The notes: generated by a model not told the origin, from the sequence alone. Positions 6,123 to 27,948 are shown, numbered from the stretch's first letter. The stretch: 64,000 nucleotides of DNA from Eubacteriales bacterium (GCA_030536855.1 JAUNPK010000001.1:4965-68964), one strand, 5' to 3'. Numbers and translations are program-made.

Positions 6123-6224
6123 CTTGTTTACTTTCTGTTACTAATTTAATAATAAATGTGTTACAATTGTTTATATTTTATAGTACCATTGGTAAACTTA
6201 CAAGAACTTACATGAGATTTACAT

Positions 6225-6433
6225 AGGCATTTGCAAAACGCCTTTTTGGTGCTGAACAGTTGTGCAATTATACTATATTGCAAGCTAGGTGCTTTGCTGC
6301 CACCGGTGCTTAACAGCTGTATTTTAGCCGTTTATGCACCGCTGTGAGCAGCAAGTAGCAAGAGCGTGCCTAGCGGTAATATAATATAATTGCACAACGT
6401 ACAGTATTAAATCACAGAGTTTCGCAAACGCCT
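6225..6433. mobile_element. 209-bp non-autonomous fold-back (MITE-like) element with 13-bp target duplication
   Basis: ATGAGATTTACAT at 6212-6224 and 6434-6446; terminal IRs AGGCATTTGCAAAAC / GTTTCGCAAACGCCT match 13/15; nested internal IRs. Confidence 0.75.
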
Positions 6434-6465
6434 ATGAGATTTACATTTAGGAGGTGTTAATATCA

Positions 6466-18208: not shown

Positions 18209-18570
18209 CTAAGCTATTCTCTCTTTCACATTAGGTAATTCATACAACGTATCCGGATCAATATCCAAACAGGTCGTATTATCTCTATTTTTACAAATAT
18301 CCCATGCCAGAGTATCATTCAGTACCGTACAGGTATCTATAAAAACATTTATATCTTTTAAGGTTTGAAACGCTTCTTTCTCTAACATTGGGGTCATATC
18401 ATAGCATACAATTTTTCCATCTTTAGAGAGTTCCCAATTCTGCATCAATTCATCCTGATGCAAAACACACCACGCCAAAATCAATTTCAATTGCCTTGAG
18501 GGTAAAGCACCTTTTATCACTCTTGCTCCATCTATTTCAATTAATGCCTTATTTCCATATATCCTTGACA
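18209..18570 (-). pseudogene. Fused DUF4160/DUF2442-like remnant (putative type II TA pair)
   Basis: YGNKALIEID...GALPSRQLKLILAWCVLHQDEL..NWEL joined in frame at KDGK to IVCYDMTP...LAWDI....D...LDIDPDTLY. Confidence 0.65.
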
Positions 18571-18829
18571 GTGTAAGCATACCACAAATATCACTGAAAA
18601 AAACCCACAAACTTGATGTTTGTGGGTTTCCATATAATAAAAATACTCTTTTTCTTATCTCTTTGTTAACGTTTTGAGAGCGAGAAAAGCCCTGAAACAA
18701 GGGATTTGTTGGTAGCAGTGTTGCATATGTGTTTTATGTTGAGAACTGCCCACAACTTCCTTTAGCTTCCATATATTTCAAATCTATTTGTCAATTTCAC
18801 TTTTAATTGTTTCCTTCAAATTATTTTTA

Positions 18830-18858
18830 TTGCATACTAACCATTTTACTGTTATTAT
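18830..18858 (+). promoter_or_regulatory. Sigma-A promoter of the putative type I toxin, copy 1
   Basis: TTGCAT-17-TATTAT with extended TG; predicted start near 18865. Confidence 0.7.
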
Positions 18859-18969
18859 TAATTTGGTGCTACCCTATTCGGTAGGCGGTTAGTTCTTCAG
18901 CATAGGGACTGTGACCCTCTGATTACATAGAAATCATCTTGTATGAAATCTTTCAAAGGAGGGATGCCA

Positions 18970-19101
18970 ATGTTGACTCTTGAAAGTCTCATTGCAGTTT
19001 TAAGTTTTGGCTTAACCTGCTTTGGACTTGGATATACACTCGGTAATAAATCACGAAAAAATAATCGCCACCGGTCTGGTAAACTGAGGCGATTATTTTA
19101 A
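18970..19101 (+). CDS. 43-aa hydrophobic peptide, putative type I toxin, copy 1 (absent from ORF track)
   Basis: MLTLESLIAVLSFGLTCFGLGYTLGNKSRKNNRHRSGKLRRLF*; SD AAGGAGGG at 18956-18963; one TM helix plus basic tail. Confidence 0.75.
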   Translation: MLTLESLIAVLSFGLTCFGLGYTLGNKSRKNNRHRSGKLRRLF

Positions 19102-19146
19102 TCAATTCATAAACTGGACTAACCGTCTATCGGTAGCACCTTTTAT
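19056..19146 (-). ncRNA. Putative antisense antitoxin RNA, copy 1 (about 90 nt)
   Basis: Convergent promoter TTGACA(19181-19176)-17-TATTAT(19158-19153); 12-bp IR 19058-19069/19088-19099 followed by a T-run on the minus strand. Confidence 0.6.
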
Positions 19147-19196
19147 GAGATAATAATAACATCATTAACAAAACATGTCAAAAGAATTTTCATACA

Positions 19197-22100
19197 TTAT
19201 TTAAGTTTTTTTCTTTTGTCATTCAATTCTGCCAATGCTACAATTGACAAAAGGAAAAGTGCTGTCCAAAGTGTTGGATTGCATTCATCACCTGTTTCCG
19301 GTTTATTCTTCTTTGTTTCAGTCTCTGTTTCCGATTTAGGTTTCCTTGCTTCAGCCTCTGCCCCCTGATCATTATCGGTCTGGGGTTCGTTTTCGGCAGA
19401 AGCGGATTTCTGAAACCGAGCATAATAAGTAGCCTCCCCTGTGGTGGTGTAGCTGATAGTATTTCCATTGTTGATCAAAATATCTTCATCAACCTTTTTA
19501 CCTTCTGCATCATACCAGCCCACAAATTCGTAACCCTCTTTTGCCGTTGCGGTGGAACTGGCTGTTGCTCCCACTACATCCGTATGAGTATAGCAGTCAA
19601 GAGTTGCTATACTGTCATCCGTGGTAACCTTCCAGTTATCTCCATCCTTTACTTGACGGATGTAGGTCTGGGTCACGGTTTCGGCAGATACGACTTTCTT
19701 AAACCGGGCATAATATGTAGCATTCCCGGTTGTGGTATAACTCAGGGTTGTTCCTTTGTTGCTTAACTTATCACTCGCAACCAGATTCCCTTCTGCATCA
19801 TACCAGCCCACGAATTCATAACCTTCTTTCGCTGTTGCAGTGGAACTGGCTGTTGCTCCCACTACATCCGTATGCGTATAATAGTCAAGGGTTGCTATTG
19901 TGTCATCCATGGTATTTCCCCAGATATTTCCATCTTTAATTTGGCGAATATAGGTCTGTGTCACCGTCTCGGCTGCTTCAATTCTCTGAAACAATGCATA
20001 ATAGATAGCATTTTCTGTGGTGGTGTAACTCAGGGTTTTCCCATTGTTGCTTAACTTATCACTCGCAACCAGATTCCCTTCTGCATCATACCAGCCCACA
20101 AATTCGTAACCCTCTTTTGCCGTTGCGGTGGAACTGGCTGTTGCTCCCACTACATCCGTATGAGTATAGCAGTCAAGAGTTGCTATACTGTCATCCGTGG
20201 TAACCTTCCAGTTATCTCCATCCTTCAACTGACGGACAAAGGTCTGTGTCACCTTTTTTTCAAATCTTGCGATATATGTTGCGCTCACAGTTGCTGTGTA
20301 GCTTAGGATGTTACTGGTTGCCCCCAGCATGGATTCTGCCACTGCATTTCCACTTTCGTCATACCAGCCCACAAACTCATAGCCTGTTCCTGCCGTCGCT
20401 GTGGAACCGGCTGTGCTTCCATACTCAACTATTAAGCTTTCAGGTGCGACAGTTCCGACGTTGGTATCGCTGGTAGCTTCCCATGTTTCCCCATTCTTTA
20501 CCTGTCTCTTATAAGTCTGGGTTACCTTGACTTTCTGGAATCGTGCGATATATGTAGCATTTGCAGTTGCTGTATAACTCAGGGTGGTTTCTGTTGTTGT
20601 TGCTGTTTCTGCTACTGCTTCTGTTTCACCGGTTGTTTCCACTTTATACCAGCCCACAAACTTATAGCCTGTTCCTGCTGTCGCTGTGGAAGTAGCAGTT
20701 GCTCCCACTACATCCGTATGGGTATAATTGGTCAGCATTCCTACTTTATTATCTGTGGTTTTTATCCATGTACTTCCCTCTAATATCTGACGGTCAAAGG
20801 TCTGGGTTACTGTTTTTTCAAATCTTGCAATATAAGTGGCACTTCCGGTTGTTGTATAACTGATGGTTTTTCCATCACTACTTAATCCTGTTGTCACCTT
20901 ATTTTCTGTGGAATCATACCAACCAACGAATTTATAGCCTTCTCCTGCTGTCGCAGTAACACTAATGTCCTTTCCTGCTACATCAACATAAGAATAACGG
21001 TCCAGGTTTCCTGCGTCATCATTATTTTCGCCCTGAATCCCTTTCCAGTTATCCCCATCCTTTACCTGGCGCTTATAGGTCTGGGTTACTGTTCCAGAAA
21101 ATCTTGCATAGTAAGTGCCAACATTTTCTTGCATTTCGGTAAAACTGTAGGTTGCATGCGTCGTAATCAAATTTGCATCACTGCCGGTACCATCATACCA
21201 GCCCTCAAATACATAACCCTCTTTTGCCGTTGCCTTGGCAGTTACAATTTCATCCGTTTCGGCAAAATAAGCTTTTCCACCGTTTGCATTATATGCAGCC
21301 ACATAATTGGCATCCGTATTTGGTACACTGGTAATCTCAACCGTTCCACCTGTATCAGAATTGGTATATCCTTCACCACTATTTATTTGCGGAAGAAATG
21401 CCTGCCGCCACCGCCACTGGGCAACCATAGTAAGACCTTTGTGGATATTGGCATAACTAAGTGTTGCACTCGAATCATTTGTGGTCCATTTTGTATATGT
21501 TGATCTATCAGTCTCCTGCTTTAGGTCAGGCGCAGCAATACTCTTATTCCATATTTGAAAATACTGTTCCTTCTTCGTACTTTCTCCACTAAAATCACAA
21601 GCAATGGTATGCTCTGCCGGAAGCAGTAATGAACCTAGTTTATCAGCATTTACCTTAACCGTACCCTGCGGTATATCACTCACTGTATCACCGGTCAATA
21701 ACCATCCCATAAATTTCCAGCCATCTTTACCTTCTGCTGCATGGGATACATAGGGAGAAATATATGTAAATGTATTTCCCTCACCCGTTTGAGGAACCGG
21801 CTTGAAGCTGTATACATTACAAGCTTCTTCCGTATTATAAGTCCTTTCAACAGTATAGACACTTCCCCCATTCGGGTCATAAGTCACTGTAGGACTCTTG
21901 ATAAAGACAAAATGCAAATCTGTTGCCGTAGTGATATTATCCAGATAATAGGTATAAATGATATCTCCGCCATCGTTAGTATATTTTATCCATTTATTCT
22001 TCTTTTCTTCATTTGTCAAATTATCCTGATAATCAATCTCATTTCCATCTTTTTTCAAAAATGTAGTTACCAAATTTCCCGATGTATCCTGTACCGTATA

Positions 22101-23294
22101 ATATAATCCGACAAATTCACATCCTTCATCAGCATCCTTTTTCTTAATAACCGCCTGGACCTTCAAGGGTTCCCCATCCACGGCATAGGTAATCAGATGA
22201 TTGTCCACTGTAATCTGGTGTCCTGAACTTATAGCCGATTCGCCTGATGTTGCTCCAGTGCTGTCACTAACCACACCGCTTCCGTGAAGTGTCGAACTTC
22301 CTGACAATGGATGAAATATCTTAAAATTAATATTGTCTAGGAAATTTCCAAAAGTCTTTTGTGTACTAGGAGCACCTGATGCATTCGTAACACATCCAAC
22401 AGACACAAATCCAAATATAGTTTCTGTCTGATCAGCAGGTACAGTATAGAAATAATCTCCACTCAAGTTTCCCCCTGTAATACTGTTAGCGGGATCATTG
22501 GCACCATATTTGCCCCATGGATTCGTACCACTTGAGATATTTCTGTCTGCTATAATCCAGATTTGCCATTCTTCCGTATAGATGGCGCTTGGTTTCAGAC
22601 TGAAAGCATTATTTCCGGAATTATTTGCAAAGGTACCATTTGCAGCAAATTTCTTACTGTAAACTGTAAGATGTTTCTCTATACCTGCAGATGCCTTTAC
22701 AGACGTCTTTCCCTCGGCAATCAGCCAGTCTACCATCTGCATCAACTGATCCCGTCCGCCTTTATCCGGTTTTCCATCGTTATTCGTATCCTGTTTTGAT
22801 GGATCCACAGTCTGTTTTGGTCCGATTACCAATGCCATGGTATCCGCATAATTACGGGCACCATGATCCAATCCCCATTCATAGATACTGGCGGGAGTTG
22901 TAGCAACATTTTGATACAATGTACTCTCTTCTTCAGCATTTAACTCTGCCGCAATAGTACCTGCTGAAGGTATTAATTTCACACCTTTTATATAAGTACC
23001 CGTATTTTCTTTAAATAATTCTATTTTTCCATCAGTGGCTGTTGTGTTCCATGCTGTAACCTTTTCTTGGGTTGGTGATGCGTAACAACTCGAAAACGTA
23101 ACACCGTCAGCAATATTTTCAAAGCTACCGTTTAACAGCATTTTATTATTTGCATTGGTTGCCTCTTCTGAATTTGCTACATGAAGACTCATACCGGTAA
23201 CAAAACACAGCTCCAGTATAAGTGCGAATAATATAATCAAAAAATGATTTTGTTTATGTTTTCTTTTGTACCACATAGTTTTGCCTTTCCCCAT
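19197..23294 (-). CDS. 1365-aa cell-wall-anchored protein with InlB B-repeat-like (Flg_new-type) domains
   Basis: Signal peptide; seven A..GY.F.GWY repeat units; C-terminal KPETG + TM helix + KRKKLK sorting signal. Confidence 0.82.
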   Translation of the reverse strand: MGKGKTMWYKRKHKQNHFLIILFALILELCFVTGMSLHVANSEEATNANNKMLLNGSFENIADGVTFSSCYASPTQEKVTAWNTTATDGKIELFKENTGTYIKGVKLIPSAGTIAAELNAEEESTLYQNVATTPASIYEWGLDHGARNYADTMALVIGPKQTVDPSKQDTNNDGKPDKGGRDQLMQMVDWLIAEGKTSVKASAGIEKHLTVYSKKFAANGTFANNSGNNAFSLKPSAIYTEEWQIWIIADRNISSGTNPWGKYGANDPANSITGGNLSGDYFYTVPADQTETIFGFVSVGCVTNASGAPSTQKTFGNFLDNINFKIFHPLSGSSTLHGSGVVSDSTGATSGESAISSGHQITVDNHLITYAVDGEPLKVQAVIKKKDADEGCEFVGLYYTVQDTSGNLVTTFLKKDGNEIDYQDNLTNEEKKNKWIKYTNDGGDIIYTYYLDNITTATDLHFVFIKSPTVTYDPNGGSVYTVERTYNTEEACNVYSFKPVPQTGEGNTFTYISPYVSHAAEGKDGWKFMGWLLTGDTVSDIPQGTVKVNADKLGSLLLPAEHTIACDFSGESTKKEQYFQIWNKSIAAPDLKQETDRSTYTKWTTNDSSATLSYANIHKGLTMVAQWRWRQAFLPQINSGEGYTNSDTGGTVEITSVPNTDANYVAAYNANGGKAYFAETDEIVTAKATAKEGYVFEGWYDGTGSDANLITTHATYSFTEMQENVGTYYARFSGTVTQTYKRQVKDGDNWKGIQGENNDDAGNLDRYSYVDVAGKDISVTATAGEGYKFVGWYDSTENKVTTGLSSDGKTISYTTTGSATYIARFEKTVTQTFDRQILEGSTWIKTTDNKVGMLTNYTHTDVVGATATSTATAGTGYKFVGWYKVETTGETEAVAETATTTETTLSYTATANATYIARFQKVKVTQTYKRQVKNGETWEATSDTNVGTVAPESLIVEYGSTAGSTATAGTGYEFVGWYDESGNAVAESMLGATSNILSYTATVSATYIARFEKKVTQTFVRQLKDGDNWKVTTDDSIATLDCYTHTDVVGATASSTATAKEGYEFVGWYDAEGNLVASDKLSNNGKTLSYTTTENAIYYALFQRIEAAETVTQTYIRQIKDGNIWGNTMDDTIATLDYYTHTDVVGATASSTATAKEGYEFVGWYDAEGNLVASDKLSNKGTTLSYTTTGNATYYARFKKVVSAETVTQTYIRQVKDGDNWKVTTDDSIATLDCYTHTDVVGATASSTATAKEGYEFVGWYDAEGKKVDEDILINNGNTISYTTTGEATYYARFQKSASAENEPQTDNDQGAEAEARKPKSETETETKKNKPETGDECNPTLWTALFLLSIVALAELNDKRKKLK
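19400..21260 (-). repeat. Coding tandem repeats of 270-288 bp within the surface protein
   Basis: GWY codons recur at 19513, 19801, 20089, 20362, 20647, 20917 and 21196. Confidence 0.9.
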
Positions 23295-23417
23295 TTACAT
23301 TTATCAAACATAAATACTGTTCAAAAGAATTACCTTAGTTTTTCCTCAGTATATGGCTTTCACAGACATAACGGATATTTCTACATTTGTCACAAATCAG
23401 TCTACACTCGGTAGCAT

Positions 23418-23449
23418 ATTATCACACCCACCCTTACAAAAACCTTACA
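23418..23449 (-). promoter_or_regulatory. Candidate activator-dependent promoter of the surface protein gene
   Basis: TGTAAGG-tttt-TGTAAGG direct repeat, 8 nt, then GATAAT as -10. Confidence 0.5.
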
Positions 23450-23585
23450 CTTTGGGTTTTTTTACTAATATTTTACAATTTTTACTTTATCTTCAAATGT
23501 CCAAAACGTAAAAACAACACAATACAGATAGCTCCTACTACCTATATTGTGTTGCTCATATTGTCATAGTTTTTTCATATTTTAA

Positions 23586-24398
23586 TTATTTTTCGCTGCC
23601 GGTATCCTTTTCCCATTGGATTTTCTGCTCCGCAAGCTGGGCATTCCGTTCCTCTGCCCAGCTAAATCTTTTTAAATATGCCCCATGATAATCCGCAATC
23701 GCATCTTTCTTTCCCGATAATATCCGGTACAGGTCACATTCCACCTGATCCGTACGAAGATATTTCGTTTTTCCGTCTGTTCCGATAATATTGTCAATCC
23801 CCACTTCCTTAAGCTTATCCTTAAGCCTCGACATGGTAACCCAGTAAATGCTATCTCCTACGGTCTTATCCGGCCACAGACAGGCAATCGCCTCTCCTCC
23901 GGTAATTCCCACGTCTCCTCTGTCAACCAGCAGTGCAAACAACTCCTCATGCTTTGTGTGCCCCAAATGCAGTGGACTGCCATTTACCGTCACAAGCAAA
24001 TCCGGCATGGTCTGTATTTCTATCTTCTTCTTTGGTCGTGAACCAATATAAGAGGCCTTCTCCAGTTCCTTCTCTACATCCTCCCTGAAATAAGGCTTTA
24101 GAAGATAGCCAATAGCATCTACCCCAAAAGCCTCCAACGCATACTGCTCATATGCAGTCACAAAGACAATACGGATATTCCGGTCTATGCCTTTCAACCT
24201 CTTCGCCAGTTCAATACCATTGATTCCCGGCATCTGAATATCTAAAAAAGCCACCTCCACAGGATGATTCTGTGCCCATTTCAAAGCTTCCTCGCTTTTA
24301 CGGAACAGGTTTAGTTCCTCCACCATAGATAACCCTTCAACCGTCATGCGGAAATTATCCAACAATGCGGTCTCATCATCTACATATATTACTTTCAT
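23586..24398 (-). CDS. Response regulator: receiver domain plus SARP/OmpR-like winged-helix output
   Basis: VDDE, FLDIQMPG, FVTAY, YLLKP; ELFALLVD.G...EAI..LWPD...MSRLK..L. Confidence 0.88.
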   Translation of the reverse strand: MKVIYVDDETALLDNFRMTVEGLSMVEELNLFRKSEEALKWAQNHPVEVAFLDIQMPGINGIELAKRLKGIDRNIRIVFVTAYEQYALEAFGVDAIGYLLKPYFREDVEKELEKASYIGSRPKKKIEIQTMPDLLVTVNGSPLHLGHTKHEELFALLVDRGDVGITGGEAIACLWPDKTVGDSIYWVTMSRLKDKLKEVGIDNIIGTDGKTKYLRTDQVECDLYRILSGKKDAIADYHGAYLKRFSWAEERNAQLAEQKIQWEKDTGSEK

Positions 24399-26221
24399 TC
24401 CGCCTCCATTAGTATTTTTATAGTTACTTTCGTCCCCTCCCCGGGAGTACTGTCAATAGCAAGGCTTCCGCCTGCCATGTTCTCCAGACGGTATCGGACA
24501 TTTCGAATACCTACGCACTCCTTGGATTTTATCTCCTGTGGAACGAATCCTACACCGTCATCCACAATCGTTATCACAACCATCTCTCCTTCCCGCTCTG
24601 TCCGGAGTATCACCATTCCGCTGCGGTCTTGTTCCAACAGCCCATGTTTGATGGCATTCTCCACAAGTGGCTGCACGGTAAGAGGCGGAATCCTGAAATT
24701 CATTTCCTCTATGTCCTTAGAAAACAGAATCTTGTCAGGGAAACGCATCTGCTCCAACGCAACATAATCCTCCAACTGCTCCAGCTCTGCTGAAAAATCA
24801 ATCATACCTTCTTCCTCAATGATTCTTATATTCTTTCGCAGATATCTGGAAAAACGAATCAACGCTTCATCCGCCTTTTTTGCATCAGACTTGCAAAAAC
24901 CGCTGATTGTGGTCAGAACATTGAAAATGAAGTGTGTACGTATCTGGCTCATCATAACGGCGATACGCCGTTCCGTCAGCTTCCGCTCCGTCTCAGCCAG
25001 TTCCTTCTCCTGATTGGCAAGCTGTCTTTCCTGCTCTGAAATCCTTATCTCCTGTTCACTGTAATTATACATAGTAGCAATACCTAAAAATACAATATAA
25101 AACAAAAACGCCATCAGCGAAAATAGTAGTCCGGAAGAATTACCCTTAATATAAAAAGCTGCCACATCTGCCATCGCCCCTGCCACAAACAGATAGGAAA
25201 GTCTTCTGGCTGCCGGTATTTCCTTCTTCCGCGGATACTTTTTCCGTTCCTGCACTGCAATACCAATCATTATGACGGCATCTGTTCCAATCAGGATATG
25301 TGTAAGCACTAGCATTTCCCGAAAATCTAGGATGCCGCAGATTTGGAACAAAACCTGAACAAGACATGCAAGTGCATCCACAATGCAGCAGACATCCAGC
25401 ACCTGCCGCCCTTCCTTCTCAAAATATTCCCCAAACCATTTCATCAGAGGTATCATCCCCAGCATTAACATACAGATAGACACATAGAAGAGAAAGACAG
25501 GTTTCTCCGGCAGGATAAAAGGGGTGAACCTTGTATCCGTCAGCCTCCACAAACCTATCATTGTAGAAAACAACCCTAAAGAAATCAGGCTCTTACCCCG
25601 TCCCTTTTCAACTACATTGTAAGTTGCCACGCAGAGAAAAACAATTCCCACAAATATCGCCATGATACCAAGAATAATCTGCGGCAAATCCAACGCCAGG
25701 CGATAACGGTAAATGGCAAGTGATGAACCAAAAAGGAACTCAACCTGCCTGTCCCGGAAGCTTTCATAGACTGGAGTAATCTCCACACGAATTTCTTTTC
25801 CAGCATCCTCCCTGTAAAGTGGTATCATAACCCAGTTGCTGCCGGCTGTTTTGATGGTACTTCGTTCCTCCACAGGTTCCATCCGGAAAACACACTCTCC
25901 CTCCAGATACACCTCCACATTCTGATGCACGGTATAAAACGCAAGGCTTGCATCGTGATCACTCCTCTGGTCCAGGAAAAACACATATTCCTTTTTGATA
26001 CCTATAGGTGCTTCGGCATCCTCAATCTCCTGGCAGGCCACCTCCTCCAGCACCTCATAACTACAATCCTCTCTGCTCTGATAAACCTCAATATTATCCG
26101 TTACTCCCAGCCACAACAAAAAGCCTGCCATTGTAATCCCCGCTGCTATCGACAGCAAAACGGAAATTTTTGACAAGCTGTCACTTTGTTTTGAATTATA
26201 ATGACTTGCTAAATTCGGCAT
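24395..26221 (-). CDS. LytS-like sensor histidine kinase with 7TM-DISM-like input
   Basis: SQIRTHFIFNVL H-box, QPLVENAIKHG, DDGVGF, VGIRNV and STPGEGT; overlaps the regulator by 4 nt. Confidence 0.9.
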   Translation of the reverse strand: MPNLASHYNSKQSDSLSKISVLLSIAAGITMAGFLLWLGVTDNIEVYQSREDCSYEVLEEVACQEIEDAEAPIGIKKEYVFFLDQRSDHDASLAFYTVHQNVEVYLEGECVFRMEPVEERSTIKTAGSNWVMIPLYREDAGKEIRVEITPVYESFRDRQVEFLFGSSLAIYRYRLALDLPQIILGIMAIFVGIVFLCVATYNVVEKGRGKSLISLGLFSTMIGLWRLTDTRFTPFILPEKPVFLFYVSICMLMLGMIPLMKWFGEYFEKEGRQVLDVCCIVDALACLVQVLFQICGILDFREMLVLTHILIGTDAVIMIGIAVQERKKYPRKKEIPAARRLSYLFVAGAMADVAAFYIKGNSSGLLFSLMAFLFYIVFLGIATMYNYSEQEIRISEQERQLANQEKELAETERKLTERRIAVMMSQIRTHFIFNVLTTISGFCKSDAKKADEALIRFSRYLRKNIRIIEEEGMIDFSAELEQLEDYVALEQMRFPDKILFSKDIEEMNFRIPPLTVQPLVENAIKHGLLEQDRSGMVILRTEREGEMVVITIVDDGVGFVPQEIKSKECVGIRNVRYRLENMAGGSLAIDSTPGEGTKVTIKILMEAE

Positions 26222-26682
26222 AGGTTTTTTCCTCTTCTGTAAAAGGTGGATTTGGATTTATCTTGTTTCCATGATACCACTCCTTTATCGTCTCATTTTA
26301 TGATATCATTTATTGTATCATTTAATAACTCATTTTATTCGTTCGTCTATGATTTTCCCACGTTATCTGCGAACACAAGAAGAACCTCGATTCCGCTTCG
26401 CTTCATCTCGGTCATTCTTGCGTTCCTATGTATTGCATATGTGTTTTATGTTGAGAACTGCCCACAACTTCCTTTAGCTTCCGTATATTTCAAATCCCAT
26501 TTGTCAATTTCACTTTTAATTGTTTTCTTCAAATTATTTTTATTGCATACTAACCATTTTACTGTTATCATTAATTTGGTACTACACTATTCGGTAAGCG
26601 GTTAGTCCTTCAGCAGAGGGACTGTGACCCTCTGATTACATAGAAATCATCTTGTATGAAATCTTTCAAAGGAGGGATGCCA

Positions 26683-26814
26683 ATGTTGACTCTTGAAAGT
26701 CTCATTGCAGTTTTAAGTTTTGGCTTAACCTGCTTTGGACTTGGATATACACTCGGTAATAAATCACGAAAAAATAATCGCCACCGGTCTGGTAAACTGA
26801 GGCGATTATTTTAA
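26683..26814 (+). CDS. 43-aa hydrophobic peptide, putative type I toxin, copy 2 (identical CDS)
   Basis: Same sequence and SD as 18970-19101; promoter TTGCAT(26543)-17-TATCAT(26566). Confidence 0.75.
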   Translation: MLTLESLIAVLSFGLTCFGLGYTLGNKSRKNNRHRSGKLRRLF

Positions 26815-26859
26815 TCAATTCATAAACTGGACTAACCGTCTATCGGTAGCACCTTTTAT
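26769..26859 (-). ncRNA. Putative antisense antitoxin RNA, copy 2
   Basis: TTGACA(26894-26889)-17-TACTAT(26871-26866); same terminator hairpin as copy 1. Confidence 0.6.
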
Positions 26860-27062
26860 GAGATAATAGTAATATCATTAACAAAACATGTCAAAAGAAT
26901 TTTCATACATCGTTATTAAAATATCCGGTTTCTTCCCATACTGGAGCTATGTCAAGACTTTGGACATTGAAAATCAACAACATTTCCATCCTCATAATAT
27001 TCAATTCCTCTATCTAAAATGTGCTGTCTAAATAATGTATACTAGTTCATATTGTATCATAC

Positions 27063-27272
27063 TTATTTTTCAAAGCCATATTCCGTCTTTAATCTTTCAA
27101 ATATTTCAAATGCAACCAGACAAACCTGAACAGCCTCCAACATACTATACAAACTATGTAAACGTTCTGGCTGGTTTGTAGATGCATCTTTCTTTATATC
27201 AGATAAAGGTATACTCCCATAATAGCACTTACAACAATTTCTACATCTACTACAATCATACTCTTCAAACAA
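27063..27272 (-). pseudogene. Remnant of a YkgJ-family cysteine-cluster protein
   Basis: DCSRCRNCC joined directly to TNQPERL...VC.VAFEIFERLK; the second Cys cluster and N-terminus appear missing. Confidence 0.55.
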
Positions 27273-27462
27273 TTTATTGTGTAATTTGGCAAATTGCTCA
27301 TCTAATTTTTTTCATCTGCACTACACTTCAAAAACATGCGGAACTCCAAATTTTCTCTTTCCATTTTCTCCGCCATATGTTTTATCTTTCTTGGTGCTAT
27401 CATAATTGTCCTTCCCTGCATATAAATATTTTCACTATAAGTAATTTTACCACAGTTATCAT

Positions 27463-27495
27463 AAAAAACACCCCAGAACAAAAGTCCTGGAGTGT
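27463..27495 (-). terminator. Intrinsic terminator of rplM-rpsI
   Basis: ACACTCCAG/CTGGGGTGT stem followed by a T-run on the minus strand. Confidence 0.75.
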
Positions 27496-27543
27496 AATAT
27501 ACTTTTCTGAAACGTCCTGAGACGTTCCGGATTGTGAAATCGA

Positions 27544-27948
27544 TTATCTCTTTGAGAACTGTGGAGCACGACGGGCTGCTTTGAGACCGTACTTCTTTCT
27601 TTCCTTCATTCTTGGATCTCTTGTTAAGTATCCTGCTTTCTTAAGTGCTGGACGATACTCTTCAGAATCTGCCTGAAGAAGAGCTCTTGAGATACCATGT
27701 CTGATAGCTCCGGCCTGACCTGTGTATCCACCACCGTGTACATTAACAATTACATCAAACTTCTCAGTTGTTTCTGTAAGTACTAATGGCTGCTTAACAA
27801 CAACCTTAAGTGTTTCAAGACCAAAATATTCATCAAGTGATCTCTTATTTATTGTGATATTACCATTACCTGGTACTAAATATACTCTAGCAATACTGCT
27901 TTTTCTTCTACCTGTTCCGTAGAACTTTCCGTTTGCTTTCTTAGCCAC
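27544..27948 (-). CDS. rpsI: 30S ribosomal protein S9
   Basis: GTGRRK...ARV; [19 protein letters not shown]. Confidence 0.98.

What the first reader, a model, noticed from the sequence alone, without database searches (positions are those of the whole stretch)
18721..26910. Sensor-regulator-adhesin cassette bracketed by two direct-repeat type I TA modules
Seen: 477- and 478-bp repeats 7.7 kb apart (about 12 differences, identical core) enclose exactly three genes: histidine kinase, response regulator and a 1365-aa wall-anchored repeat protein. The left repeat ends on the stop codon of the surface protein. The two-component genes look more GC-rich than the host genes. No integrase or transposase is present. 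Inference: a composite-transposon-like unit built from TA modules rather than IS elements. Recombination between the repeats would excise or amplify the cassette while leaving one TA copy. I know of no named system with this layout.
Basis: partly seen in the sequence, partly recalled or inferred. Interest (0 to 1): 0.75.

Follow-up and report, generated by a model that had tools for sequence, protein, structure and literature searches.

The report
Toxin-antitoxin repeats flanking adhesin cassette
Two copies of a small toxin-antitoxin module bracket a horizontally acquired sensor-regulator-adhesin gene set, and related gut bacteria show that recombination between the copies has removed or inserted the gene set more than once, always keeping one toxin-antitoxin copy.

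Summary
Repeats 18718-19197 and 26430-26910 differ by 12 substitutions and 1 indel, with a 252-nt identical core. They enclose only a histidine kinase, a response regulator and a sortase-anchored Flg_new-repeat protein. This cargo has 42.5% GC against 36.5% for the genome, and no recombinase is present.

Each repeat is a 110-nt segment A plus a complete predicted type I toxin-antitoxin module. The family is widespread in Lachnospiraceae and absent from Pfam and Rfam.

The repeats and cargo form an 8.85-kb island (18662-27509) at the 3' end of rpsI. It is 97-100% identical in bacteria whose core genes are only 65-79% identical, and the window's closest relative lacks it. This indicates recent horizontal transfer.

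The cultured Roseburia porci isolate has the same TA-cargo-TA layout. Other R. porci-like strains have one repeat and no cargo in 99%-identical flanks. Their single copies are left/right mosaics with three different crossover points, which indicates recurrent homologous recombination. Most other carriers have lost the left toxin-antitoxin module through one shared deletion.

Self-transposition is not: the island sits in an rpsI cassette hotspot bounded by att-like repeats.

The parts
18662..27509 (.). Horizontally transferred island: left flank stub, left TA repeat, three-gene cargo, right TA repeat and 600-nt spacer.
   Evidence: It gives one colinear 8,895-nt match (95.9%) to the Roseburia porci isolate, with no similarity outside it. 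Its segments are 97-100% identical in contigs whose rplM, rpsI, truA and ecf genes are only 65-79% identical to the window. It is absent from the close relative L033.
18718..19197 (+). Left direct repeat: segment A (18718-18815) plus TA module B (18816-19193).
   Evidence: It carries the left-type SNPs 18720G, 18771A, 18813C, 18868G, 18873C, 18884G, 18894T and 19156A. The left copies in R. porci and L065 share them.
26430..26910 (+). Right direct repeat (segment A plus TA module).
   Evidence: Its right-type SNPs are shared with the right copies of all other carriers.
18830..18858 (+). Predicted toxin promoter: TTGCAT, 17-nt spacer, TGtTATTAT. The right copy is at 26543-26571.
   Evidence: Read directly from the sequence. 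The position is conserved across family members.
18865..19145 (+). Predicted toxin mRNA of about 281 nt. Its 5' end GGTGCTACC pairs with GGTAGCACC at 19132-19140. The right copy is at about 26578-26858.
   Evidence: RNAalifold on 11 family members predicts a long 5'-3' helix, a helix that sequesters the ribosome-binding site, and a terminator. Of 53 predicted pairs, 15 show compensatory changes.
18970..19101 (+). Toxin ORF, 43 aa: MLTLESLIAVLSFGLTCFGLGYTLGNKSRKNNRHRSGKLRRLF. The right copy is at 26683-26814.
   Evidence: It has a ribosome-binding site GGAGG at 18958-18962, a hydrophobic helix and a basic tail. The A6 run at 19056-61 shifts the tail out of frame. A7 gives the canonical 31 aa ending KSRKK, and A8 gives 39 aa.
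19052..19181 (-). Predicted antitoxin sRNA unit. Promoter TTGACA (19181-19176), 17-nt spacer, TATTAT (19158-19153). The RNA runs from about 19146 to about 19052. The bidirectional terminator hairpin is at 19058-19099. The right copy is at 26765-26894.
   Evidence: The promoter scan matches 11 of 12 positions with an extended TG. The inverted repeat is I1. The TTGACA and TATAAT boxes are conserved in most family members.
19197..23294 (-). Cargo gene 3: wall-anchored surface protein, 1365 aa, with internal repeats of about 288 nt.
   Evidence: Pfam Flg_new_2 2.7e-31 and Flg_new 5.9e-21. TIGR02543. N-terminal signal-like sequence and C-terminal PETG anchor. Internal repeats D1-D7.
23586..24398 (-). 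Cargo gene 2: response regulator, 270 aa, with a receiver domain and a weak PhoB-like C-terminal domain.
24395..26221 (-). Cargo gene 1: sensor histidine kinase, 608 aa.
   Evidence: Pfam His_kinase PF06580 and HATPase_c. Its 90%-identity cluster has 483 members.
26359..26429 (.). 71-nt segment directly left of the right repeat. It is a probable scar of an earlier rpsI-adjacent location of the cargo.
   Evidence: It is 96% identical to sequence about 80 nt downstream of rpsI in the island-free genomes L215 and L216.
26911..27509 (.). 600-nt non-coding spacer that always travels with the right TA copy.
   Evidence: It is 98-100% identical in all carriers, including the cargo-free ones. It has no Pfam or Rfam match.
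27444..27554 (-). att-like boundary sequence: the last 11 nt of rpsI (CAAAGAGATAA), a hairpin, the rpsI terminator and a TGTGGTAAAAT -10-like box.
   Evidence: Copies of this sequence separate many small cassettes downstream of rpsI in related contigs.
18655..18665 (-). Remnant of the distal att core. It reads CAAAGAGATAA on the minus strand, at the island's left end.
   Evidence: L052, L055 and L077 have the full copy of about 95 nt at this position. The window keeps only the core.
18690..18702 (-). Terminator-like hairpin CCCTTGTTTCAGGG followed by a T-rich tail, downstream of segment A.
   Evidence: It is conserved in all carriers.
18209..18558 (-). Degraded and fused remnant of a DUF4160-DUF2442 cassette. 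It lies outside the island.
   Evidence: Pfam. tblastn against the intact L077 pair finds only residues 30-77 and 21-91.

Best explanation
The region is an 8.85-kb horizontally acquired island at the 3' end of rpsI in a Lachnospira-like gut bacterium. In it, a three-gene cargo is bracketed by two direct copies of a 480-nt unit. The cargo is a histidine kinase, a response regulator and a sortase-anchored Flg_new-repeat surface protein.

Each 480-nt unit has a 110-nt upstream segment A and a complete type I toxin-antitoxin module. The module encodes a short hydrophobic peptide. Its mRNA is locked by a 5'-3' helix and by a helix that sequesters the ribosome-binding site. A convergent antisense sRNA of about 95 nt overlaps the mRNA's 3' end.

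The two copies act as ordinary homology for host recombination. Crossovers anywhere along the 480 nt delete the cargo, or by the reverse reaction insert it, and always leave one hybrid TA copy. Gene conversion keeps the cores of the two copies identical.

What is shown:
- the anatomy;
- horizontal spread of the island;
- the TA-cargo-TA state in three assemblies;
- single-copy mosaic alleles with three crossover intervals.

What is inferred:
- that the module is a working toxin-antitoxin pair;
- that recombination depends on RecA;
- the direction of each event, where excision is favoured;
- that the surviving TA copy is favoured by post-segregational killing.

The island as a whole does not move through its TA ends. 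It is one module of an rpsI cassette hotspot whose modules are separated by att-like repeats, and it was probably placed there by a recombinase supplied in trans or by flank homology.
For: Anatomy of the repeats and module.

The TA family:
- The peptide is conserved (MLT.E.LIAV.S.CLTCF.LGY..G...K.QK) across 13 diverged loci of the genus.
- The promoters are conserved.
- 15 of 53 predicted RNA pairs show compensatory changes.
- The 24-nt 3' motif occurs in at least 119 contigs of species-representative genomes.

Horizontal transfer:
- Island segments are 97-100% identical where core genes are 65-79% identical, and GC is 0.425 against 0.365.
- The close relative L033 lacks the island.
- The best kinase match within the genus is only 50% identical.

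Second and third instances of TA-cargo-TA:
- ERZ24911592 NODE_233 has repeats 97.5% identical around 7.5 kb of cargo.
- The Roseburia porci isolate has the same layout.

Cargo-free alleles:
- L062 and L064 have flanks 99.2-99.6% identical to the cargo-bearing form and a single repeat.
- The SNP tables show a crossover in 18895-19155 for L205, L207 and L213, in 18745-18770 for L208 and L211, and in 19157-19197 for L214.
- For the last two classes, the stretch shared by the two copies is only 26 and 41 nt. That is shorter than the assemblers' k-mers, so they cannot be graph-collapse artefacts.

Concerted evolution: both window copies have A6 and both L065 copies have A8.
Against:
- The crossover class inside the identical core (L205, L207, L213) could in principle be a false join by a metagenome assembler.
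- Mosaic single copies could also arise from allelic recombination between strains, without any intrachromosomal excision.
- RecA dependence is not tested.
- TA function is not tested. The peptide matches no Pfam or NCBIfam model, and both window copies carry a frameshifted tail.
- Most carriers lack the left TA module, so the bracketed form is not the stable end state.
- How the first TA-cargo-TA arrangement arose is unresolved.
Confidence: 0.75

Rival explanations
1. Reverse direction. The single-copy alleles are the ancestral state. TA-cargo-TA arises when a circular or linear cargo-plus-TA fragment integrates into a resident TA module by homologous recombination (Campbell-type capture).
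For: The sequence outcome is identical to excision. An L208-type resident plus an incoming copy would reproduce the observed left and right copies with a crossover at 18745-18770. The island is clearly mobile between genera.
Against: Three different single-copy mosaics would need three different ancestral alleles that each happen to be mixtures of left and right types. The same left/right SNP pattern occurs in two genomic contexts, the window and R. porci, so the two-copy form predates at least one arrival. Intramolecular deletion is the easier reaction.
Confidence: 0.2
2. Different origin of the layout. The TA unit is itself a cassette of the rpsI hotspot. It was inserted twice, independently, on either side of a cargo cassette by the hotspot's site-specific machinery. 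Alternatively, the cargo was dropped between two tandem TA units.
For: Family members occur as tandem pairs 414-477 nt apart (L091, L103, L106). The hotspot stacks small cassettes between att-like repeats. The 71 nt left of the right repeat look like a scar from an rpsI-adjacent site. The left and right copies differ by about 8% in 18856-18903.
Against: There is no recognisable site or duplication at the repeat boundaries. Segment A is not found upstream of other family members. This would explain only the origin, not the mosaics with several crossover points.
Confidence: 0.25
3. The small ORF and antisense promoter are not a toxin-antitoxin pair. They could be a harmless small membrane protein gene, or a repeated 3' UTR or terminator element. 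In that case the repeats are plain non-coding homology.
For: No Pfam, NCBIfam or Rfam hit. Three tail variants (A6, A7, A8) are tolerated. No expression data exist.
Against: The peptide is conserved with a hydrophobic helix and a lysine-rich end. Covarying 5'-3' and ribosome-binding-site helices are typical of type I toxin mRNAs. The convergent promoter is near consensus and conserved. The same RNA scaffold carries Hol_Tox PF16935 peptides elsewhere.
Confidence: 0.1
4. The second repeat copy is an assembly artefact.
For: The window's genome is a 54-contig draft. Logan contigs of the likely source run break inside the repeats.
Against: There are 13 fixed differences between the copies and unique junction sequences. 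The identical layout occurs in an isolate genome and in an unrelated metagenome contig.
Confidence: 0.01

Closest known systems
E. coli LDR (ldr/rdl) and QUAD/SIB (ibs/sib) loci: type I toxin-antitoxin modules carried on long direct repeats of about 0.5 kb (Fozo et al. 2010, PMC2887945)
   Same: Each repeat unit of about 480-530 bp is one type I module, with a small hydrophobic peptide and a cis-antisense RNA. The copies lie in direct orientation at one locus. Tandem pairs also occur in this family.
   Different: In E. coli the copies are adjacent and enclose nothing, and that paper reports that type I loci are not prone to horizontal transfer. Here the copies enclose 7.2 kb of cargo and the whole unit moves between genera. 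There is no sequence relationship, and membership was not shown.
B. subtilis txpA/RatA and bsrG/SR4, and C. difficile type I modules on prophages and islands (from my own knowledge)
   Same: The toxin mRNA and the antisense RNA converge and overlap at their 3' ends, share a terminator region, and lie on mobile or island DNA.
   Different: The peptide family is different. Those modules are single copies inside an element. They are not paired repeats that act as recombination substrates.
Hol_Tox (PF16935) small holin-like toxin family
   Same: The 24-nt 3' RNA motif and the module layout are shared with loci that encode Hol_Tox peptides.
   Different: The window's peptide does not match the Hol_Tox model even at E<=10. 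It is not a member by the HMM test.
CIMEs and tandem accretion of IMEs/ICEs at the 3' end of rpsI, e.g. IMESag-rpsI (PMC5704250, PMC5090054)
   Same: The island has no integrase and lies at the rpsI stop codon. Relatives have direct repeats of about 95 nt that re-encode the rpsI end. Several cassettes are stacked at the site, and integrase and Mob_Pre elements occupy the same site in other genomes.
   Different: In the window only the 11-nt core survives at the distal end. No cognate integrase was identified. Cargo gain and loss documented here happen at the internal TA repeats, not at the att sites.
Composite transposons and IS26 translocatable units
   Same: Cargo is bracketed by two direct copies of a selfish element. 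One copy plus the cargo can in principle leave as a circle and re-enter at another copy.
   Different: There is no transposase and no target-site duplication. The crossover points are spread along the repeat, which marks homologous recombination, not transposition.

Membership tests
Type I toxin-antitoxin system | Short ORF (under about 60 aa) with a ribosome-binding site, encoding a hydrophobic, membrane-type peptide with a charged end. | tested here: met
   The 43-aa ORF at 18970-19101 has a GGAGG site. The canonical family form is 31-34 aa and ends in K.QK or KK. It is conserved in 13 diverged loci.
Type I toxin-antitoxin system | A cis-encoded antisense RNA with its own promoter and terminator that overlaps the toxin mRNA. 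| tested here: inconclusive
   The prediction is strong. The minus-strand promoter matches 11 of 12 positions with an extended TG, it is conserved in the family, and there is a bidirectional terminator.
Type I toxin-antitoxin system | A structured toxin mRNA with 5'-3' pairing and an occluded ribosome-binding site. | tested here: met
   The RNAalifold consensus has 53 pairs, 15 with compensatory changes, including the 5'-3' helix and a helix over the AAAGGAGG site.
Type I toxin-antitoxin system | The peptide is toxic when overexpressed and is neutralised by the RNA. | not testable with these tools
   This needs expression in a laboratory strain.
Hol_Tox (PF16935) | Match to the family HMM at or above the gathering score. 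| tested here: not met
   The window peptides give no hit at E<=10. Peptides from other loci with the same RNA motif do match, e.g. 29.2 bits against a cut-off of 23.3.
Composite transposon | IS elements with a transposase at both ends, plus a target-site duplication. | tested here: not met
   Pfam finds no transposase or integrase between 16629 and 27543. No duplication flanks the repeats or the island.
CIME (cis-mobilizable element) at rpsI | Lies at the 3' end of the target gene and is flanked by attL and attR direct repeats that include the gene's end. | tested here: inconclusive
   The rpsI-proximal copy is intact (27444-27554). The distal copy is reduced to the 11-nt core in the window (18655-18665). 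L052, L055 and L077 keep a full distal copy at 88-95% identity.
CIME (cis-mobilizable element) at rpsI | Has lost its own integrase and transfer genes and is mobilised by a related integrase in trans. | tested here: inconclusive
   The absence of an integrase is shown. A cognate integrase was not identified. Integrase-bearing elements occupy the same site in L074 and L080.
Repeat-mediated (RecA-type) deletion/insertion polymorphism | Alleles with and without the segment in otherwise identical flanks. The single copy is a hybrid, and crossover points vary along the repeat. | tested here: met
   Flanks are 99.2-99.6% identical. Three mosaic classes were found. RecA dependence itself cannot be tested here.

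The most novel reading that the evidence does not exclude
Type I TA modules of this Lachnospiraceae family may act as selected, portable 'addictive homology arms'. Every recombination outcome keeps at least one copy, and losing the last copy would be penalised. Under that condition the modules could let cargo operons be captured, swapped and shed by host recombination across genera, without any dedicated recombinase. Together with the att-like joints, this would make the rpsI tail an integron-like cassette platform in gut Firmicutes.
Probability: 0.15. Interest if true: 0.8.

Novelty: new variant of a known kind. Interest (0 to 1): 0.5.

Why it matters
[quoted passage not shown] Here one is part of an island shared at 97-100% identity between gut genera. 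Its two copies are demonstrably the points at which an adhesin and its two-component regulator are lost or gained within a species.

This gives a simple, testable route to on/off strain variation of a surface protein in gut commensals. It also assigns a concrete role to duplicated type I modules, as recombination handles that survive every outcome. A cultured strain with the complete layout, Roseburia porci MUC/MUC-530-WT-4D, makes it directly testable.

The underlying mechanism, deletion between direct repeats, is ordinary. The value lies in the documented natural series of states, not in a new principle.

Tried and rejected
No depth, split-read or circle test was possible.
- Pfam and NCBIfam on the toxin peptides, and Rfam at a permissive threshold on the TA and spacer region: no meaningful hits.
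- Circle or tandem junction pattern (kinase-upstream anchor, repeat, surface-gene anchor) in JGI metagenome contigs: none found. A control showed that only 4 contigs in that collection carry the anchor at all, two of them without the island. The negative is therefore uninformative.
- Site-specific recombination at segment A as the cause of the cargo polymorphism: rejected for the main class, whose crossover lies inside the TA core to the right of A. Varied crossover points also argue against any single site.
- TA module as a small transposable element with a 7-bp ATTATTT duplication: rejected. The real junction in all A-only contigs is gtttcc|acatta, with no duplication or microhomology.
- Synteny of the TA family in the genus: other copies lie in unrelated contexts. 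The kinase-regulator pairs in G026 and G035 (about 50% identity) have no TA module and no surface gene.
- The same repeats around a different cargo: not found among the places inspected. Only 24 of 403 index blocks were read.

Full report
OBSERVATION. The window holds two direct repeats, 18718-19197 and 26430-26910, offset by 7712-7713 nt. They differ by 12 substitutions and one 1-nt indel. Eleven of these differences fall in 18720-18903 and two at 19156 and 19160. The 252 nt from 18904 to 19155 are identical.

Only three genes lie between the repeats, all on the minus strand. The first is a 1365-aa protein with Flg_new and Flg_new_2 (Listeria-Bacteroides) repeats, a signal-like N-terminus and a C-terminal PETG motif followed by a hydrophobic stretch and a basic tail. 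The second is a 270-aa response regulator. The third is a 608-aa His_kinase/HATPase_c sensor. The left repeat ends on the surface gene's stop codon.

The cargo has 42.5% GC, against 36.5% for the genome and 32-38% for the flanks. No integrase, transposase or tRNA lies between 16629 and 27543.

WHAT THE REPEAT IS. Each copy has two parts. Segment A (18718-18815) is about 100-110 nt of upstream sequence. Module B (18816-19193) has the full anatomy of a type I toxin-antitoxin locus:
- a plus-strand promoter, TTGCAT-17-TGtTATTAT (18830-18858);
- a transcript predicted to start at GGTGCTACC (18865) and end at GGTAGCACC-TTTT (19132-19145), so that the two ends are complementary;
- a GGAGG ribosome-binding site and a small ORF (18970-19101) encoding a hydrophobic helix with a basic tail;
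- a minus-strand promoter matching 11 of 12 consensus positions with an extended TG (19181-19153), which would give an antisense RNA of about 95 nt;
- a bidirectional hairpin at 19058-19099 that would terminate that RNA.

The module belongs to a family. The genome has a third, diverged copy on another contig. Of the 61 genomes searched (the window's own plus 60 relatives), 19 have matches, and these cover only the module, not segment A. In 13 diverged loci the peptide is conserved as MLT.E.LIAV.S.CLTCF.LGY..G...K.QK, and both promoters are conserved. RNAalifold on 11 members predicts the long 5'-3' helix, a helix over the ribosome-binding site, and the terminator. Fifteen of the 53 predicted pairs show compensatory changes.

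A 24-nt motif from the mRNA's 3' end occurs in at least 119 contigs of species-representative genomes. Almost all are Lachnospiraceae (Roseburia, Coprococcus, Butyrivibrio, Eubacterium and others), and some hold tandem pairs 414-477 nt apart. Some of these loci encode Hol_Tox (PF16935) peptides instead. The window's peptide itself matches no Pfam or NCBIfam model, and the RNAs match no Rfam family. I therefore accept 'type I TA module' as a well-supported prediction. Neither toxicity nor the antisense transcript could be tested.

THE UNIT IS A HORIZONTALLY TRANSFERRED ISLAND. The host is a Lachnospira-like bacterium, since the best named RpoA relatives are 87-88% identical 'Lachnospira sp.'. 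A close relative, GCA_051879535.1, is 95-99% identical across the adjacent ribosomal and ecf genes. Its similarity to the window stops exactly at the rpsI stop codon (27545), and it has other genes there. Within the genus the best kinase match is 50% identical.

By contrast, the kinase belongs to a 90%-identity cluster of 483 sequences. A dozen pig-gut and human-gut metagenome contigs carry the spacer, TA module, kinase, regulator and surface-gene N-terminus at 97-100% identity, while their rplM, rpsI, truA and ecf genes are only 65-79% identical to the window's. Their GC content of 42-45% matches the cargo.

The cultured Roseburia porci MUC/MUC-530-WT-4D gives one colinear 8,895-nt match (95.9%) to window 18662-27509 and nothing outside it. 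This defines the island. More distant relatives with an 85-86% identical kinase keep the kinase-regulator-surface trio but have no TA module upstream of the kinase and different neighbours there. The trio is therefore the functional cargo, and the TA association is specific to this island.

R. porci and metagenome contig ERZ24911592 NODE_233 both have the same TA-cargo-TA layout as the window, with 483-nt repeats 97.5% identical around 7.5 kb. They sit in a different context, between a Zeta-toxin-like module and an Abi_2 gene. Several contigs with 99.2-99.6% identical flanks have one repeat and no cargo.

Fixed SNPs distinguish a left type from a right type. The left type is 18720G, 18771A, 18813C, 18868G, 18873C, 18884G, 18894T and 19156A. 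Both types are the same in the window and in R. porci. The single copies are mosaics of three kinds:
- Left type up to 18894 and right type from 19156 (L205, L207, L213).
- Left type only up to 18744 (L208, L211).
- Left type up to 19156 with a right-side flank (L214).

The first kind lies in the identical core, which is longer than the assemblers' k-mers, so it could in principle be a false join. For the other two kinds the shared stretch is only 26 and 41 nt, so they are real recombinants. Crossovers at several places along the repeat mark homologous recombination, not site-specific recombination. Three different mosaics are more simply explained by repeated deletion from the two-copy form than by three ancestral alleles. 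At least two independent events are needed on any reading.

A second sign of exchange between the copies is concerted evolution. The poly-A run inside the ORF is A6 in both window copies and A8 in both copies of NODE_233. In the isolate it is A7 in the left copy and A8 in the right copy.

OTHER STATES. In seven further contigs from several species backgrounds the left copy is reduced to segment A. All seven share the identical junction gtttcc|acattatttaag, which corresponds to loss of 18816-19193. This was one event that then spread. It is now the commonest form of the island and leaves only 92%-identical 110-nt repeats around the cargo. The junction has no microhomology or duplication, so insertion of B cannot be formally excluded. 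However, the left-type SNPs inside B are shared by the window and R. porci, which favours deletion.

CONTEXT. The island's rpsI-proximal end is a sequence of about 100 nt. It comprises the last 11 nt of rpsI (CAAAGAGATAA), a hairpin, the terminator and a TGTGGTAAAAT box. Copies of this sequence separate many small cassettes downstream of rpsI in related contigs, including DUF4160-DUF2442, a Zeta-like module, HepT/MNT and restriction-modification genes. Integrase-bearing and Mob_Pre-bearing elements occupy the same site elsewhere.

In L052, L055 and L077 a full second copy closes the island on its distal side. The window retains only the 11-nt core at 18655-18665, next to a degraded DUF4160-DUF2442 remnant. 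This matches the known picture of integrase-less elements (CIMEs) accreted at the 3' end of rpsI (PMC5704250, PMC5090054), and it matches earlier notes of this scan. Movement of the island between genomes is therefore better attributed to this hotspot than to the TA repeats.

One oddity remains. The 71 nt immediately left of the right repeat (26359-26429) are 96% identical to sequence just downstream of rpsI in genomes that lack the island. This hints that the cargo once sat directly at rpsI.

MECHANISM AND VERDICT. The best-supported reading is that the TA copies act as 480 nt of portable homology. Host recombination between them deletes the adhesin and its two-component system, or in reverse captures them, and always keeps one hybrid TA copy. 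Gene conversion homogenises the cores. Whether the TA function biases these outcomes by penalising loss of the last copy is inference only.

No amplification, no circles and no alternative cargo were found. Read-level tests were impossible, and the one junction search was uninformative. The layout resembles the E. coli LDR and QUAD type I repeats (PMC2887945), but with cargo enclosed and with clear inter-genus transfer. It fails the defining tests of a composite transposon. I rate it a new variant of known kinds: interesting for TA biology and strain-level adhesin variation, but mechanistically ordinary.

Noticed in passing
window 27444-27554; L055 7843-7932; L065 11554-11684; L078 9809-9940, 10734-10860, 11810-11868; L074; L076: An att-like sequence of about 100 nt recurs at the joints between many small cassettes stacked downstream of rpsI in Lachnospiraceae. 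It comprises the rpsI end CAAAGAGATAA, two hairpins and a TGTGGTAAAAT box. The cassettes include DUF4160-DUF2442, a Zeta-like module, HepT/MNT, restriction-modification genes, and integrase/Mob_Pre elements.
   Followed up: partly
L072-L081: One exact 86-aa DUF4160 protein is indexed in 3005 blocks. In each of the ten places listed it lies downstream of rpsI, either directly next to it or separated from it by islands of 5-8 kb, and the surrounding genomes differ from place to place. The DUF4160-DUF2442 pair therefore looks like a very widely spread rpsI cassette.
   Followed up: partly
window 19056-19061 and 26769-26774: The poly-A run inside the toxin ORF varies. A7 gives the canonical 31-aa peptide ending KSRKK (isolate's left copy, L060, L214). 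A8 gives 39 aa, the commonest allele, indexed in 403 blocks. A6 gives 43 aa, in both window copies. This could be slippage-driven tail variation or attenuation.
   Followed up: partly
window 26359-26429; L216 9960-10030; L215 430-495: The 71 nt left of the right repeat recur 96% identical next to the rpsI terminator of island-free genomes. There they lie within a region bracketed by the 13-nt inverted repeats GTTATCTGCGAAC and GTTCGCAGATAAC.
   Followed up: partly
It is paired with either MLTIEGLIAV-type or Hol_Tox-type peptides. There is no Rfam family for it.
   Followed up: partly
window 6224-6435 vs L033 8302-8512: The fold-back element of about 210 nt at 6224-6435 has a 92% identical copy in the close relative GCA_051879535.1. 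That copy sits at a different place, in the ecfT-truA spacer, which suggests recent mobility.
   Followed up: no
window 19373-21250: The surface gene has internal repeats of about 288 nt. Its length ranges from 1264 to 1454 aa among otherwise 97-100% identical islands.
   Followed up: no
L209 1-8547: In one R. porci-like strain a prophage carrying a reverse transcriptase (a DGR-like Mtd_N/RVT_1 region) abuts the Abi_2 gene where other strains have the TA island. No TA copy is present there.
   Followed up: no
window 26911-27440, minus strand: The 600-nt spacer is 98-100% conserved in all carriers and has no ORF called by any annotation. It starts just after a -10-like box that points toward the TA module and the kinase. 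It could be a long leader or a non-coding RNA.
   Followed up: no
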